DNA from: Escherichia virus KFS-EC
Sequence record: MH560358
Reading direction: 5' to 3' (one strand)
Length of the DNA: 64,000 nucleotides
The notes under the pieces were generated by a model that had not been told where the DNA came from, did no database searches, and saw only the letters and a program-made list of their open reading frames with translations. Below, piece by piece: positions 15,210 through 19,665 of the stretch. Within the stretch, counting starts at the first letter, position 1, and the number at the start of each line of letters is the position of its first letter. The translations under genes were made by a program, and so were the position numbers.

Positions 15210-17453
15210 TTACAGCTTGCAAGATGAGCACTCGCTAGCGTCTTCCGTACCATCTGCACCGTCGCGAACGTTCGCATAATACAGGGTTTTCAGACCGTAA
15301 TATTGAGCAAACAGCATATCATCTAACACATCAGCAATATCGACTTTACCAGTCTTATAAGTGCTTGGATCGTAGGATGTATTGGAACTAATCGCCTGAT
15401 CTACAAACTTCTGCATGATCGCTGCCAGTGTCAGATAAGGCTTGTTACCTTTCTTGATCAGTGTCCAAAGCAGGTCAATAACATCAGCATTATTCTCTAC
15501 GTTCGGAATAACCTGATTAAATTGCCCTTCTTTCGATCCTTTAACCGATACAATCCCGCGAGGCGGTTCAATACCGTTTGTGCTGTTAGATACCTGAGAA
15601 GACGACTCACAAGGCATCAGCGCCGAAAGCGTACTGTTACGAATGCCATATTTTTTCAGGTCTTCGCGCAGTTCTTCCCAATCCATCTCATACACCGGAT
15701 CAACCAGTTCATCTACTGTCTTTTTGTACCAGTCGATAGGCAGTTCACCGCGACCATAGCGTGTTTCGTGCATCAGTTCGCAAGCACCCTTCTCTTTAGC
15801 CAGTCGCACACTAGCCTTAATCAGAGCATATTGCAAGCGTTCAAACGTTTTATGCGTAAACTCGTTAGCGTCTTCATATGTGAAGAAATTATCTGCTAGA
15901 TATGATGCAAAGTTAGTAACACCAATACCCAGAGAGCGACGTTTTTTGGCTGTCAGAGCTTGTTCTACAGGATAATCCTGATAATCTAACAGGTTGTCAA
16001 GTGCACGCACCATAACCATAGCAATGCGTTCTACTTCTTCCATATTTTCGATATCAAAGTTTCCTAAAACATATGCTGCCAAAGTGCATAGGCTGATCTC
16101 TGAATCATCACGACCCATCGGTTTTGTTGGCAGAGCAATTTCACAACACAGGTTAGATTGTTTAATCGGTGCTACATTACGAATAAACGCCCCGTGATTG
16201 TTCATGTTGTCTGTGAACGTTGGGTAGATTCGACCAGTGTTAAAACGTTCAATTGCCACCGCTAAAAACAGGTCTTCGGCTTTAACACGAGTTTTACGAA
16301 CACTCGGATCTTTTTCCAGTTTTTCGTAAAGCTGGCGGAAACCTTCCTCATCTCGGAAGTATAGATCCCACAACAAGCCACCCGCAACATCTGGACTAAA
16401 CAGAGTAATGTAATCCCGTTTAAGGAATCGCTCTACCATCAGGTTATTAATCTGTACGCCGTAATCAAGATGACGAATGCGGTTATCTTCCACCCCCTTA
16501 TTGTTCTTTAACACAATCAGACTTTCAAACTCTAAATGCCACATTGGGTAATAGAGTGTCGCTGCCCCGCCACGAATACCGCCTTGTGAGCATGACTTAA
16601 CGGCAGTCTGAAAATGTTTCCAGAATGGGATAACGCCAGTATGACGAACTTCACCATGCCCGATCTTAGATCCTTCCGCGCGAATCATACCAGCATTGAT
16701 ACCGATGCCAGCACGCTTGCTAATATACTTGATGATTGCATTTGCTGTTTCGTTGATGCCCTGCAATGAGTCATCACTTTCAATCACCACACACGAACTA
16801 AATTGGCGTGTTGGGGTACGCACACCTGCCATAATCGGAGTAGGCAGAGAGATTTGCTTATTCGCAACAGCATTATAAAAATCAATCACATGTTCAAGTC
16901 GATTTTCTGTCTCTTCTTGATGCAAGCACATACCGATCAGCATATACGCAAATTGCGGTGTTTCAATGATTTTCTTAGTGCTGCGATCCTGAACAAGATA
17001 TTTCTCTTTTAACTGCATCGCACCAGCATAGGTCATTTTAAAATCAAGTTTATGGTCGATGAATTTCTCCAGATATTCCACTTCTTCACGGGAATATTTT
17101 TGCAGAATTTCGCGATCATATTTTCCGGTTGCAATATTACGCTCAATATGGCTATAAAAATCAATAGGTTGGAATTGACCGTATACTGATTTACGAAGCG
17201 CGAACATTGCAAGGTTACTTGCTACATATTGATAATCAGGTGTTTCTACAGTAATGTTATCTGCGGCGACCTTAATCAATACTTTCTGGATATCATTGGT
17301 AGACATACCTTCTGTCAGAAGTGGTTCAACCATATCAAACAATTCATATGGATCAACGTTATGACCTTCGGCTGCCGCTTCCAGAATTTTCATTACTTTT
17401 TCTTTTTCAAACGGAACAGTCAGACCGGAAGACTTAACAACATTTTTAATCAT
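15210..17453 (-). CDS. nrdA: ribonucleotide reductase large subunit (class Ia)
   Basis: 747 aa; active-site NLCCEI; C-terminal CSSC tail. Confidence 0.95.
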   Translation of the reverse strand: MIKNVVKSSGLTVPFEKEKVMKILEAAAEGHNVDPYELFDMVEPLLTEGMSTNDIQKVLIKVAADNITVETPDYQYVASNLAMFALRKSVYGQFQPIDFYSHIERNIATGKYDREILQKYSREEVEYLEKFIDHKLDFKMTYAGAMQLKEKYLVQDRSTKKIIETPQFAYMLIGMCLHQEETENRLEHVIDFYNAVANKQISLPTPIMAGVRTPTRQFSSCVVIESDDSLQGINETANAIIKYISKRAGIGINAGMIRAEGSKIGHGEVRHTGVIPFWKHFQTAVKSCSQGGIRGGAATLYYPMWHLEFESLIVLKNNKGVEDNRIRHLDYGVQINNLMVERFLKRDYITLFSPDVAGGLLWDLYFRDEEGFRQLYEKLEKDPSVRKTRVKAEDLFLAVAIERFNTGRIYPTFTDNMNNHGAFIRNVAPIKQSNLCCEIALPTKPMGRDDSEISLCTLAAYVLGNFDIENMEEVERIAMVMVRALDNLLDYQDYPVEQALTAKKRRSLGIGVTNFASYLADNFFTYEDANEFTHKTFERLQYALIKASVRLAKEKGACELMHETRYGRGELPIDWYKKTVDELVDPVYEMDWEELREDLKKYGIRNSTLSALMPCESSSQVSNSTNGIEPPRGIVSVKGSKEGQFNQVIPNVENNADVIDLLWTLIKKGNKPYLTLAAIMQKFVDQAISSNTSYDPSTYKTGKVDIADVLDDMLFAQYYGLKTLYYANVRDGADGTEDASECSSCKL

Positions 17454-17525: not shown

Positions 17526-18761
17526 TTATACTGCCATTTGAGCGGTGATTGCTGGATGGCTTTGATAGTTGTGAATTTTAAAATCTTTCGGAGTCTTTGT
17601 CAATACCTCATCTAAAGATTTAAATTCCGGCAACTCAATTGTTGGTTTATCAAACGGAACACGGCTTAACTGTTCCATAACTTGATCAAAATGGTTTTTG
17701 TAAATGTGGCAATCCCCACACTGATAAACCAGTTCGCCAACTTCTAACCCGCAAATCTTCGCGATGATATGCGTTAACAGTGCATAGCTCGCTACGTTGA
17801 ACGGATTCCCTAAAAAGAGATCATTCGAACGCATGAAAAATAAACAACTCAATTTGTTGTCGTTGGAAACATAAAACTGTACCATCGGATGACATACACC
17901 TAACACAGCATTATGCGTTTCCTGTACGTTCCATGAATCAATGATAATACGACGACTATACGGATCATTCTTGATCATGTCAATAACTTTTTGTAACTGG
18001 TCTTCCCAAATCTTCGGGCGATAGACATATTCTTCATCGTCTTTAGTGCTTGATGTGTCTACGTCCATACTAACAAACATCGTGGTATCTGGTGCTAAAA
18101 TATCCCCGCCCAGATAATCACTATCAAGCAGATAACCGAAATAACCATCATCTACCCATTCCTGGAATCCCCACAAGCAATATGCATCATTAACAAAATT
18201 AGATTGAGTCTTCCAGTGGTCTGCTACTAAGAATAGATTATATTCAGAATCAAACTCTTCATAACGCATACCACGCCAGATAGCACATAAACGGTCTTCT
18301 GTGTCATTGGTTGGCGTAAAGTCTTCTACCCACGGGTGCTTAAATGTATGTGTATATTTGCTCTTAACGCGCTTAATTTTGATTTCACCATGTGGATGAA
18401 TCGGTTTGCGTCGCCACGCCATACCATACATATTGCCGACATTATAACCATTGAATCGCAAAGGATTCTTTTCTTTCATATCAAGACAGTTACCGCGCCA
18501 AATGTCGAAGGCTTCTTCGTCAAACTGACCGCGTGTAATTTCCTGTAAGCGACGGCGGTCAAGTGATCCCTCCATAAACCATAGCAACTCGCCAATTATA
18601 GAGGCTGTAGCCATCTTTTTAGTGGTCAGTAATGGGAAACCCTTGCTTAAATCGATTCGCATCTCCGCGCCGAATTTAGAGAGCGTACCTACCCCCGTGC
18701 GGTCTTCACGAGGACAGCCATTATCAAGAACATCACGCAATAGTTTCAAATATTCTTTCAT
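17526..18761 (-). CDS. td: thymidylate synthase family enzyme with ~115-aa internal insertion
   Basis: DRTGVGT, SRRIIIDSWN, VCH, DLFLGNPFNVASY, HIYKNH motifs; 411 aa versus about 265-290 typical. Confidence 0.8.
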   Translation of the reverse strand: MKEYLKLLRDVLDNGCPREDRTGVGTLSKFGAEMRIDLSKGFPLLTTKKMATASIIGELLWFMEGSLDRRRLQEITRGQFDEEAFDIWRGNCLDMKEKNPLRFNGYNVGNMYGMAWRRKPIHPHGEIKIKRVKSKYTHTFKHPWVEDFTPTNDTEDRLCAIWRGMRYEEFDSEYNLFLVADHWKTQSNFVNDAYCLWGFQEWVDDGYFGYLLDSDYLGGDILAPDTTMFVSMDVDTSSTKDDEEYVYRPKIWEDQLQKVIDMIKNDPYSRRIIIDSWNVQETHNAVLGVCHPMVQFYVSNDNKLSCLFFMRSNDLFLGNPFNVASYALLTHIIAKICGLEVGELVYQCGDCHIYKNHFDQVMEQLSRVPFDKPTIELPEFKSLDEVLTKTPKDFKIHNYQSHPAITAQMAV

Positions 18762-19002
18762 CCCACATCACCTTTTTCTTATTGATTGCTTTCTTACGCA
18801 GTTTTGCTACTGTCTCGTCAATGTCTATAAAGATAACACCACGGTCGAATATAGTAGCAGGTCTTGATATATCGCTATTTTCTTGCACAGGAAGCCATGA
18901 TGCGCTAGCTTCATCATAGAGATATTGTAAACCGTAATAATCTACGGCTACTGCGTAGTTTTCACTGGTAGCCGTCCATAATTGAATAATACCGACTTTC
19001 AT
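18733..19002 (-). CDS. hypothetical protein (89 aa)
   Basis: ORF-track frame; start at internal ATG; overlaps td start. Confidence 0.35.
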   Translation of the reverse strand: MKVGIIQLWTATSENYAVAVDYYGLQYLYDEASASWLPVQENSDISRPATIFDRGVIFIDIDETVAKLRKKAINKKKVMWDERIFETIA

Positions 19003-19095
19003 TATTGTTCCCGTCCGCAATGTAAACACCGACTACCAGCAAACATCAAAGATTCACCACAATGTTTGCACTCATAATCTGTCAGAATTTTCATG

Positions 19096-19665
19096 TTACA
19101 CCTTCTTACGTTCTAAAATTTGTTCGCTGATCAGGTAATCATCAAGGAAGTAACTATGTTCTTCTTTTGTTGCAAAGTCAAAATATAATTCCTGAATCAT
19201 TTCCTTAGAGATCCCAACATCATATTCGAACGGATCATTAATTCCTGCTCGTTGAACATATGTTAACACAATACGATCCGAAAAGTCAACCGCTTTTTCA
19301 ATCAGGGAAGGTCCGCCGATAACACTTACCAAACCTTGCGTTTTCTCTAGGGCTTTTAACAGATCCTTCAATTCAATTCCAGTATACACATCAGGTTGGT
19401 CGCCGTTTTTAGCTTTCGGTTCTGGCTTGTTGGTATCGGTGCTAACAACCACATTCAAACGTCCCCAAAGTGCTTTAGGCAGACTTTCAAAGGTATTGCG
19501 TCCCATTACTACCGCAGAAAAATCAACCTCGCCAATAGTGCGGATTTGAAAGTTTTCCATATCTTTTTTGATTGGACGACCCCACGGTAAACCGCCTTTA
19601 AAACCAAAAGCCCAATTTTCATCCGACATTTTAGTGTTACCAATCGCAAATACACATTGAATCAT
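19096..19665 (-). CDS. frd: dihydrofolate reductase
   Basis: GGLPWGRP motif; 189 aa; directly upstream of td. Confidence 0.85.
   Translation of the reverse strand: MIQCVFAIGNTKMSDENWAFGFKGGLPWGRPIKKDMENFQIRTIGEVDFSAVVMGRNTFESLPKALWGRLNVVVSTDTNKPEPKAKNGDQPDVYTGIELKDLLKALEKTQGLVSVIGGPSLIEKAVDFSDRIVLTYVQRAGINDPFEYDVGISKEMIQELYFDFATKEEHSYFLDDYLISEQILERKKV

What the first reader, a model, noticed from the sequence alone, without database searches (positions are those of the whole stretch)
17526..18761. Thymidylate synthase homologue with a ~115-aa insertion and non-canonical VCH active-site context
The 411-aa protein has TS core motifs (DRTGVGT, SRRIIIDSWN, DLFLGNPFNVASY, HIYKNH), but about 115 residues are inserted after MYGMAWRRKP, and the catalytic cysteine sits in LGVCHP rather than the near-invariant PCH. 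The insertion is in-frame and lacks intein end residues, so it is a real protein domain rather than an intron or intein. Changes this close to the active site raise the question of altered substrate or product.
Basis: partly seen in the sequence, partly recalled or inferred. Interest (0 to 1): 0.55.

Follow-up and report, generated by a model that had tools for sequence, protein, structure and literature searches.

The report
Thymidylate synthase carrying a decayed endonuclease-like insert
This is the ordinary thymidylate synthase gene of an RB49-like (Krischvirus) coliphage, but a surface hairpin of the enzyme carries a 133-residue folded domain that appears to be the worn-down remnant of a homing-endonuclease-like cassette found full-size at the same spot in the thymidylate synthases of other phages.

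Summary
A 411-aa ORF on the minus strand (17526-18761) is a thymidylate synthase (TS), split by a 133-aa in-frame insert (aa 121-253), with V289-C290-H291 in place of P-C-H.

The insert folds confidently (pLDDT about 92-95) as an acidic alpha/beta domain on a two-stranded stalk. It is homologous to the central module of a cassette of about 245 aa. That cassette sits in-frame at exactly this site in TS of jumbo phages and many uncultured phages. It also occurs as free-standing phage genes with AP2 or I-HmuI-like DNA-binding domains, which PHROGs labels "HNH endonuclease".

In Krischvirus both flanking modules are gone. Most family-invariant residues and the conserved cysteines are lost, and the net charge has flipped. 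I read it as a decayed, structurally tolerated relic.

Cassette-bearing TS are scattered among cassette-free relatives, which suggests a splicing-independent mobile element. Whether the module is a nuclease is unresolved.

The parts
17526..18761 (-). td gene: thymidylate synthase, 411 aa plus stop codon
   Evidence: ORF list; Pfam PF00303 4.1e-84; TIGR03284 279 bits vs cutoff 108; PDB TS chains at 2e-66; 93-98% aa identity to the annotated td of RB49, JSE and GEC-3S.
18402..18761 (-). N-terminal part of the TS core (aa 1-120), ending in MYGMAWRRKP
   Evidence: Translation verified; aligned to E. coli TS residues 1-102.
18003..18401 (-). In-frame insert, aa 121-253 (133 aa): two-stranded beta stalk plus a compact acidic alpha/beta domain
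   Evidence: Alignment with insert-free TS. AF2 strands 118-130 and 245-254 with helices between, pLDDT 95 for the full protein and 91.5 for the insert alone. Net charge -13, pI 4.6.
18048..18314 (-). Degenerate central module of the endonuclease-like cassette (aa 150-238)
   Evidence: A profile built only from full-size inserts of other phages hits it at 2.8e-19. It aligns with free-standing phage proteins. It keeps W, W, F and D.D of the family-invariant set but has lost Y, R, Y, K, Y-S, C and N.
17529..18002 (-). C-terminal part of the TS core (aa 254-411), with the catalytic residues
   Evidence: Pfam stretch 254-411 = profile positions 110-266; residue table.
17892..17894 (-). Codon of catalytic Cys290 (context L-G-V-C-H-P)
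   Evidence: Translation; aligned with E. coli C146.
17687..17987 (-). Mosaic patch (aa 259-358) shared with phage JSE but highly divergent from RB49, Phi1, JK32 and phiS
   Evidence: Up to 29 mismatches per 60 nt in this patch, against 0-5 in most of the rest of the gene and its flanks. Core dS is 0.43 against 0.07 in the insert, window vs RB49.
19096..19665 (-). frd (dihydrofolate reductase), upstream in the same orientation
   Evidence: Pfam DHFR_1 1.7e-19; annotated frd in Phi1, JK32 and phiS.
15210..17453 (-). nrdA (class Ia ribonucleotide reductase large subunit), downstream
   Evidence: ORF of 747 aa; annotated nrdA in RB49 and JSE.

Best explanation
The ORF is the phage's working thymidylate synthase (Td). 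It should make dTMP and dihydrofolate from dUMP and methylene-tetrahydrofolate. The DHFR encoded just upstream would recycle the folate, and NrdA is encoded just downstream.

The 133-residue insert extends a native surface hairpin: E. coli P-T-P-D-G|R-H-I-D-Q, which is also the site of the 8-residue eukaryotic insertion at human TS 146. The extension forms a long two-stranded stalk carrying a small acidic alpha/beta domain.

That domain is the shrunken remnant of a three-module cassette of about 245 aa: an N-terminal beta module, a central module, and a C-terminal I-HmuI/NUMOD-like DNA-binding module. The cassette is present in-frame at the same site in TS of jumbo phages and many uncultured phages. 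Its relatives are free-standing phage genes of the homing-endonuclease type.

In Krischvirus:
- both outer modules have been deleted;
- the central module has lost most family-invariant residues and the conserved cysteines;
- the net charge has changed from basic to strongly acidic.

So it most likely no longer cuts or binds DNA. It probably persists as a folded passenger that the enzyme tolerates and has adapted to. The Pro-to-Val change before the catalytic Cys is a substitution shared by the whole cassette-bearing clade, not a sign of new chemistry.

Shown: homology, architecture, residue conservation, the predicted fold, and purifying selection. Inferred: enzymatic activity, loss of nuclease or DNA-binding function, and the passenger status of the insert.
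For: TS identity:
- All catalytic residues are kept.
- It is the only TS-family ORF in the window.
- It lies in a frd-td-nrdA context.

The insert is translated and constrained:
- It is present in all 57 Krischvirus records that matched at 90% identity or more.
- dN/dS is about 0.13-0.3 in most pairs, on few substitutions.
- AF2 gives pLDDT 95.1 and pTM 0.92 for the whole protein, and 91.5 for the insert alone.

Origin of the insert:
- tblastn of the insert finds jumbo-phage and Vibrio-phage TS with larger inserts at the same site.
- 30 or more metagenomic TS carry inserts of 124-283 aa at that site.
- Full-size inserts hit PHROGs 'HNH endonuclease' families at 4e-32.
- An insert profile finds free-standing 200-310 aa phage proteins with AP2 domains, and some TS inserts carry the I-HmuI NUMOD-like domain.
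- A profile without any Krischvirus sequence hits the window's insert at 2.8e-19.
- BFVD Foldseek hits include phage 'HNH homing endonuclease' and 'Homing endonuclease' proteins.

Decay:
- Family-invariant residues and cysteines are lost.
- Net charge is -13 (pI 4.6), against +7 (pI 9.0) for full inserts and pI 8.5-10 for free-standing proteins.
- In a rough neighbour-joining tree, short inserts arose at least three times inside the full-size clade.
- The insert diverges faster than the core (49 vs 69% identity to P0003, 34 vs 62% to P0006).
Against: - No enzyme assay or virion DNA composition data exist for this protein.
- P145V and Q165M lie in the active-site region, and their effect is untested.
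- The insert is retained throughout the genus and in a relative with only 51% overall identity (P0006). Independent shortenings in three lineages still kept this central module plus the stalk. Both facts could mean it has acquired a function rather than being a passive relic.
- I could not measure where the insert sits relative to the active site or the dimer interface, because model coordinates are not exposed.
Confidence: 0.72

Rival explanations
1. The insert has been co-opted. It is now a functional module of Td, for instance a docking surface for partners of the phage dNTP-synthesis or replication machinery, or a regulatory element. It would then be more than a tolerated passenger. The origin from the cassette would still hold.
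For: It is conserved across all Krischvirus records matched and in distant T4-like relatives (P0003-P0006). dN/dS is below 1. Three independent shortenings all kept the central module plus the stalk, ending at about 125-195 aa. The full-length pTM of 0.92 suggests a fixed orientation on the core. The marked acidification (net -13) is a directional change, not just drift.
Against: The insert evolves much faster than the core, and it carries a 4-aa indel polymorphism within the genus. No partner or motif has been identified. Purifying selection is also expected for any embedded domain whose misfolding would harm an essential enzyme.
Confidence: 0.2
2. The enzyme has altered chemistry, for example dUMP or dCMP hydroxymethylation or another C5 modification. 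The V-C-H context and the nearby insert would be responsible.
Against: Asn322 (E. coli N177) is kept, whereas T4 dCMP hydroxymethylase has Asp179 there (title of PDB entry 6l18). All other catalytic residues and the C-terminal A-V are kept. The protein passes the TS equivalog cutoff. Only TS-labelled PHROGs are hit. It is adjacent to DHFR, which is needed only if DHF is produced. It is the only TS-family gene in the window. The RB49 group is reported to lack known non-canonical-base enzymes and to carry out general transduction (PMC8056088). The RB49 allele of the same gene has Gln at the Q165 position.
Confidence: 0.05
3. The insert is still an active, site-specific endonuclease, or a DNA-binding homing module, that spreads the insert-bearing td allele.
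For: It is homologous to a module found in phage proteins labelled as homing endonucleases. Cassette-bearing TS are distributed sporadically.
Against: Both DNA-binding modules are absent. Nearly all family-invariant residues and the conserved cysteines are replaced. The domain is strongly acidic. Every Krischvirus record matched already carries it, so there is nothing to home into.
Confidence: 0.03
4. The extra sequence is removed before the mature enzyme forms, by intein splicing, an intron, or translational bypass.
For: T4 td is interrupted by a group I intron, and inteins are common in phage nucleotide-metabolism genes (PMC2988022; PMC5050341 listed).
Against: The ORF is uninterrupted. No Rfam family was found in the window. 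There is no Cys/Ser start, no His-Asn end and no nucleophile at +1. No Hint or intein Pfam hit was found. Both ends of the insert pair as a beta hairpin continuous with the TS fold. Selection is at the amino-acid level.
Confidence: 0.02

Closest known systems
Canonical ThyA thymidylate synthase (E. coli ThyA, T4 Td)
   Same: Same fold, catalytic Cys-His, Arg quartet, Asn177, Tyr94, Glu58 and C-terminus. Same frd-td-nrdA gene neighbourhood as T4-type phages.
   Different: A 133-aa folded domain is inserted in the hairpin between WR and DQL. Val replaces the Pro before the catalytic Cys, and Met replaces Gln165. There is no group I intron here, whereas T4 td has one (PMC2988022).
Lineage-specific TS insertions (the human TS inserts at positions 117 and 146; the Lactobacillus casei 50-aa small-domain insert)
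   Same: These are surface-loop insertions tolerated by an otherwise conserved enzyme. The phage insert is at the same loop as the 8-residue human insertion at 146 (PMC5929524; a recalled human sequence of 313 aa, checked only against that paper's numbering).
   Different: It is over ten times larger than the human insert and forms an independent folded domain. It has a traceable origin in a mobile-element-type cassette. It is not at the L. casei / human-117 site (L. casei placement is from my own reading of that sequence, from memory).
Inteins carrying homing-endonuclease domains in phage nucleotide-metabolism genes
   Same: An in-frame, endonuclease-type cassette sits at a conserved site of an essential enzyme and is sporadically distributed among close relatives.
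   Different: There is no Hint splicing domain and there are no splice-junction residues. The cassette stays in the mature protein as a surface domain.
Free-standing homing endonuclease genes that invade coding regions in T4-like phages (Aeh1 mobE in nrdA, T4 mobA in gene 60)
   Same: An endonuclease-type gene is inserted into a nucleotide-metabolism or replication gene without an intron or intein (PMC2988022).
   Different: Those insertions split the host gene into two polypeptides. Here the cassette is fused in-frame, and in this window it is reduced to a relic.
Free-standing phage proteins of PHROGs 953, 2081 and 374 ('HNH endonuclease'), with AP2 or I-HmuI NUMOD-like domains
   Same: The central module is homologous. 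The family is very large: 65,079 cluster representatives at E<=1e-3.
   Different: The window's copy lacks the N-terminal beta module and the DNA-binding module. It has lost the D-K-D, Y-S, C, N and R..Y signature residues, and it is acidic.

Membership tests
Thymidylate synthase ThyA (PF00303 / TIGR03284) | Profile score above the curated cutoff | tested here: met
   Pfam 282.3 bits vs cutoff 24.3; TIGR03284 equivalog 279 bits vs cutoff 108.35.
Thymidylate synthase ThyA (PF00303 / TIGR03284) | TS fold | tested here: met
Thymidylate synthase ThyA (PF00303 / TIGR03284) | Catalytic Cys-His, the dUMP phosphate-binding arginines (R21, R166, R126', R127'), and Y94, E58, S167, D169, H207, Y209 | tested here: met
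   All are identical in the alignment with E. coli TS; only P145V and Q165M differ.
Thymidylate synthase ThyA (PF00303 / TIGR03284) | Asn at E. coli position 177 (uracil specificity) | tested here: met
   N322 in PFNVASY.
Thymidylate synthase ThyA (PF00303 / TIGR03284) | Reductive methylation of dUMP, yielding dTMP and dihydrofolate | not testable with these tools
   Only indirect evidence: DHFR lies immediately upstream and nrdA downstream.
dCMP hydroxymethylase (T4 gp42 type) | Asp in place of Asn177, and closer similarity to gp42 than to TS | tested here: not met
dUMP hydroxymethylase (SPO1 gp29 type) | Sequence signature separating hydroxymethylation from methylation | not tested
   No reference sequence or model for this enzyme was available to me. 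PHROGs hits are only to families labelled TS.
Intein | N-terminal Cys/Ser/Ala, C-terminal His-Asn, and a Cys/Ser/Thr at +1 | tested here: not met
   The insert begins with Ile121 and ends ...KIWE, followed by Asp254.
Intein | Hint splicing domain | tested here: not met
   No Pfam hit in the insert even at E<=10. The model is a helical/beta domain on a hairpin that is continuous with TS.
Group I intron | Ribozyme structure interrupting the reading frame | tested here: not met
   No Rfam family at gathering score anywhere in the window; the ORF is uninterrupted.
HNH (beta-beta-alpha-metal) endonuclease | HNH sequence motif or profile match | tested here: not met
   No Pfam HNH family for the insert, for full-size inserts, or for 147 family representatives. 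hhalign of the module profile against I-HmuI gives probability 0.2%.
HNH (beta-beta-alpha-metal) endonuclease | Fold similarity to solved HNH enzymes | tested here: inconclusive
Phage module family of PHROGs 953/2081/374 | Significant profile match to the central module | tested here: met
   A profile of full-size inserts scores 2.8e-19 on the window ORF. Direct PHROGs hits of the window insert are only marginal (E 0.12).
Phage module family of PHROGs 953/2081/374 | Family-invariant residues (Y..W..M..R-C-Y, V-C..W, L-D-K-D, Y-S-P, C, N) | tested here: not met
   The window has C..W..M..E-E-F, V-A..W, L-D-S-D, L-A-P, T and no Asn. Only W, W, F and D.D are kept.
Phage module family of PHROGs 953/2081/374 | Accompanying N-terminal beta module and an AP2 or NUMOD-like DNA-binding module | tested here: not met
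   Both are absent from the window's insert. They are present in full-size TS inserts and free-standing proteins.

The most novel reading that the evidence does not exclude
The ~245-aa cassette is a mobile element of a kind not yet described. It would be a homing-endonuclease-like gene that needs neither an intron nor an intein, because it inserts in-frame into a permissive surface hairpin of thymidylate synthase and stays in the mature enzyme. It would have entered TS genes of several phage lineages at the same site. The Krischvirus insert would be the end stage of its life cycle: degeneration after fixation, possibly followed by co-option.
Probability: 0.35. Interest if true: 0.7.

Novelty: new variant of a known kind. 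Interest (0 to 1): 0.45.

Why it matters
For the phage itself the result is reassuringly ordinary. Td is almost certainly a normal dTMP synthase, so there is no reason from this gene to expect modified thymidine in Krischvirus DNA.

The wider interest is evolutionary. An essential, highly conserved enzyme carries a whole extra domain whose descent can be followed in existing sequences, from free-standing endonuclease-type genes, through a full three-module in-frame cassette, to independently shortened relics.

If the cassette is or was mobile, it would be a fourth way for homing-type elements to live inside genes, beside introns, inteins and gene-splitting insertions. It would also give a natural series for studying how proteins absorb inserted domains.

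The analysis also exposes a very large phage domain family (about 65,000 cluster representatives) that has no Pfam or NCBIfam model.

Tried and rejected
- Pfam on the insert at E<=10, and on the full-size inserts: nothing beyond TS.
- NCBIfam on free-standing relatives: nothing.
- Profile search of the insert family against all PDB sequences at E<=10: no hit.
- My by-eye reading of L-D-K-D...N as an HNH_3 motif with His replaced by Lys. hhalign of the module and of the full insert against I-HmuI (sequence verified as 1u3e) gave probability 0.1-0.2%, so I do not claim it.
- Foldseek against afdb50: the library was not available.
- An early note placed the insert at the human 'insert 1' / L. casei site. 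Checking against PMC5929524 and the human numbering showed it is the 146 site instead. I therefore dropped the idea that the insert is coupled to the human 107-128 / 181-197 loop switch.
- Search for a second TS-family gene or a free-standing copy of the module in the window: none.
- Literature searches for RB49 td insertions, for in-frame HNH cassettes in TS, and for Pro145 mutants: no relevant description found.
- Base composition of the insert: not different from its surroundings, so there is no sign of recent acquisition.
- Flanking identity around the presence/absence site in L016 vs L017: no co-conversion-like gradient, so there is no evidence of a recent homing event there.

Full report
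**1. What is there**

The finding's coordinates hold a 411-codon ORF on the minus strand, with ATG at 18761 and the stop at 17526-17528. The plus strand is closed by stops.

Pfam matches Thymidylat_synt at 4.1e-84 in two stretches. The second stretch (aa 254-411) starts at profile position 110 of 266, so the match is interrupted. Solved thymidylate synthases (TS) match at 2e-66, again in two pieces.

Aligned with E. coli ThyA and with close insert-free relatives, 133 residues (aa 121-253, nt 18003-18401) lie between WRRKP and DQLQ. E. coli has seven residues there.

The catalytic cysteine is C290, in L-G-V-C-H-P. Among the 120 best homologues, 100 have P-C-H. All 20 exceptions (V, M, I or A) are insert-bearing relatives of this protein.

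**2. Where it comes from**

The region is 93-96% identical in DNA to Krischvirus phages such as ELT3, FL04, MIZ2/3/6 and RB49. The protein is 92-98% identical to their annotated td products.

The gene order is frd (DHFR, 19096-19665), a small ORF (18733-19029), td, then nrdA (15210-17453), all on the minus strand. This is the T4-type arrangement.

No other TS-family ORF is in the 64-kb window. No Rfam family, and so no group I intron, is found in it.

**3. Is it still a thymidylate synthase?**

Every residue I checked against E. coli numbering is conserved: R21, E58, W80, Y94, R126, R127, C146, H147, R166, S167, D169, N177, H207, Y209 and the C-terminal A-V. Only two positions differ, P145V and Q165M. 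W83 is Asn, but so it is in insert-free relatives.

Other evidence points the same way:
- The protein scores 279 bits on the NCBIfam equivalog model TIGR03284, whose cutoff is 108.
- An AlphaFold2 model built on 62 sequences has pLDDT 95.1 and pTM 0.92.
- The Asn at position 177 is the uracil-specifying residue. The T4 hydroxymethylase has Asp179 there, as the title of PDB entry 6l18 shows.
- DHFR next door makes sense only if dihydrofolate is produced. This step is inference.
- A review of Tevenvirinae base modifications states that the RB43 and RB49 groups lack known enzymes for non-canonical bases, and that these phages carry out general transduction (PMC8056088).

I therefore put altered chemistry at about 5%.

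**4. The insert is a real, folded, constrained domain**

- It is present in all 57 Krischvirus records that matched at 90% identity or more.
- In the full model, strands 118-130 and 245-254 pair as a long hairpin, with helices and two short strands between them. The insert modelled on its own reaches pLDDT 91.5.
- Among seven Krischvirus alleles, dN/dS in the insert is about 0.13-0.3 for most pairs, on few substitutions. The core gives 0.01-0.17.
- At greater distance the insert diverges faster than the core: 49 vs 69% identity to P0003, and 34 vs 62% to P0006.
- Its base composition matches its surroundings.
- It has no intein junction residues and no Hint-domain hit.

**5. What the insert is**

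tblastn with the insert alone found, beyond Krischvirus, two other groups:
- the TS of jumbo phages (Asteriusvirus UE-S1 and Alcyoneusvirus phiKp_21, 517 aa);
- a Vibrio phage protein annotated "HNH endonuclease", which is in fact a TS-family protein of 477 aa.

Both have larger inserts at the same site. A search of 5.8 billion proteins gave at least 30 TS with inserts of 124-283 aa at this site.

The full-size version (about 245 aa) has three modules:
- an N-terminal beta module (C-G-x-Y-x-V-x-G-K ... T-G-S-Y ... G-V-G-Y-L-G);
- a central module (L-Y-x-x-W-x-D-M ... V-C-K-R-W-x-N-F ... L-D-K-D-Y-Y-G-S-x-I-Y-S-P-D-T-C-I-F ... N);
- a C-terminal module, which in some members is recognised by Pfam as I-HmuI_NUMOD-like.

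These inserts match PHROGs families labelled "HNH endonuclease" at up to 4e-32. A profile of them retrieves free-standing phage proteins of 200-310 aa with the same N-terminal and central modules, followed by an AP2 domain. Those proteins hit phrog_953 at up to 3.5e-73. They sit as isolated genes in phage contigs.

A profile that contains no Krischvirus sequence hits the window's insert at 2.8e-19 over the central module. Foldseek of the insert model against predicted viral structures returns an insert-bearing TS and phage proteins named "HNH homing endonuclease", "Homing endonuclease" and I-HmuI NUMOD-like.

The central module is very common: 65,079 cluster representatives at E<=1e-3 among 1.84 billion. 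Yet it has no Pfam or NCBIfam model.

**6. Whether that module is itself a nuclease is unresolved**

- None of the 147 best representatives carries a Pfam HNH domain.
- A profile search of the PDB found nothing.
- hhalign against I-HmuI gave probability 0.2%.

So I call the cassette "homing-endonuclease-like" on the basis of its companions and labels, not of a demonstrated active site.

**7. The Krischvirus copy is a relic**

- The N-terminal and C-terminal modules are gone.
- The family's nearly invariant residues are Y, W, R, Y, Y, V, W, F, D-K-D, Y-S, C and N. The window keeps only the two Trp, the Phe and the two Asp. D-K-D is D-S-D, Y-S-P is L-A-P, and the conserved Cys positions are E, A and T.
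- Net charge is -13 (pI 4.6), against +7 (pI 9.0) for a full insert. Free-standing relatives have pI 8.5-10.

Binding or cutting DNA is therefore unlikely. This is inference.

**8. Evolutionary pattern**

A neighbour-joining tree of the TS cores is rough and unbootstrapped. It puts all TS lacking the Pro before the catalytic Cys into one clade, and every member of that clade has an insert.

Inside that clade, short inserts arise at least three times from neighbours with full-size inserts:
- the Krischvirus-like group (127-140 aa by the tree script's boundaries, which count three more flanking residues);
- P0007 and P0013 within the jumbo-phage group (144-145 aa);
- P0017, P0018 and P0122-P0127 (176-194 aa).

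Other cassette-bearing TS that keep P-C-H (P0021, P0106, P0055, P0040, P0085) are scattered among cassette-free TS:
- The P0040 core is 82% identical to the cassette-free P0107. P0055 is 74% identical to P0078. Both are only 50-66% identical to other cassette bearers.
- The P0040 and P0107 loci are syntenic (DHFR, TS, small ORFs, methyltransferase). They are 70-80% identical in DNA and differ by a clean ~750-nt presence/absence.
- No co-conversion gradient is visible, so nothing points to a recent event.

This sporadic, site-specific distribution is what a mobile element would give. One old insertion followed by several precise losses is not excluded.

The 2010 review of mobile DNA in T4-type phages describes endonuclease genes that split nrdA and gene 60. 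The phrase "in-frame" does not occur in its text, and RB49 occurs only once (PMC2988022). I found no description of this insert elsewhere.

**9. Position in the enzyme**

The site is the tip of a native hairpin (E. coli P-T-P-D-G|R-H-I-D-Q). It corresponds to the 8-residue eukaryotic insertion at human TS 146. It does not correspond to the 12-residue insertion at 117 (PMC5929524; numbering checked). I place the L. casei small-domain insert at that 117 site from memory of its sequence.

**10. Verdict**

This is a canonical phage TS carrying a decayed, in-frame remnant of a homing-endonuclease-like cassette. Its "real protein domain" reading is supported. Its suggestion of altered substrate or product is not.

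The gene has been annotated as td since the RB49 genome. The nature and ancestry of the insert appear not to have been described. The possibility of a splicing-independent in-frame mobile cassette is the most novel reading left open.

Noticed in passing
window 17687-17987 (td aa 259-358): The catalytic half of td is mosaic within the genus. The window and phage JSE share one allele (FFMRSNDLFLGNPFN, YQCGDCHIY). It differs from the RB49/Phi1/JK32/phiS allele by up to 29 of 60 nt. The insert and the gene ends are nearly identical between alleles. GoldenSnicker has a different breakpoint. The window's allele resembles metagenomic TS P0003-P0005 and P0085 in this stretch.
   Followed up: partly
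window 18228-18287 (td aa 159-178): There is a 4-aa indel polymorphism inside the insert among Krischvirus alleles: YEEFDSEYNLFL in the window and RB49, against a shorter YDEFD--YIL form in JSE-like phages. This region shows 17-19 mismatches per 60 nt.
   Followed up: partly
window 18733-19029 (minus strand): A small ORF between frd and td (homologue of RB49ORF236c) overlaps the td start by 29 nt. It has no Pfam hit.
   Followed up: no
L001:2632-4065 (Vibrio phage D181): A protein annotated 'HNH endonuclease' is a TS-family protein with a ~190-aa cassette at the same site. Its TS motifs are unusually divergent (A-C-H-M, TLRSSD, FYNIWSY, KDAHTY). It may not be a canonical TS.
   Followed up: no
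proteins P0156-P0302: The central module of the cassette defines a very large phage family (65,079 cluster representatives at E<=1e-3) with no Pfam or NCBIfam model. Some members carry it twice (P0128, P0156). One of the top 147 also has a C-5 cytosine DNA methylase domain.
   Followed up: partly
L010:1-13206 (uncultured T4-like phage, 169-kb contig): A relative with a 401-aa TS (A-C-H, 124-aa insert) has a DUF4326 gene between td and nrdA. It also has a 528-aa DUF4942/methyltransferase gene and eight small ORFs between gene 32 and frd.
   Followed up: no
L017:1446-1679 vs L016: The cassette-free locus has an extra 77-aa ORF directly after TS that the cassette-bearing syntenic locus lacks.
   Followed up: no
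window 1-64000: No Rfam family reaches its gathering score anywhere in the 64-kb window.
   Followed up: no
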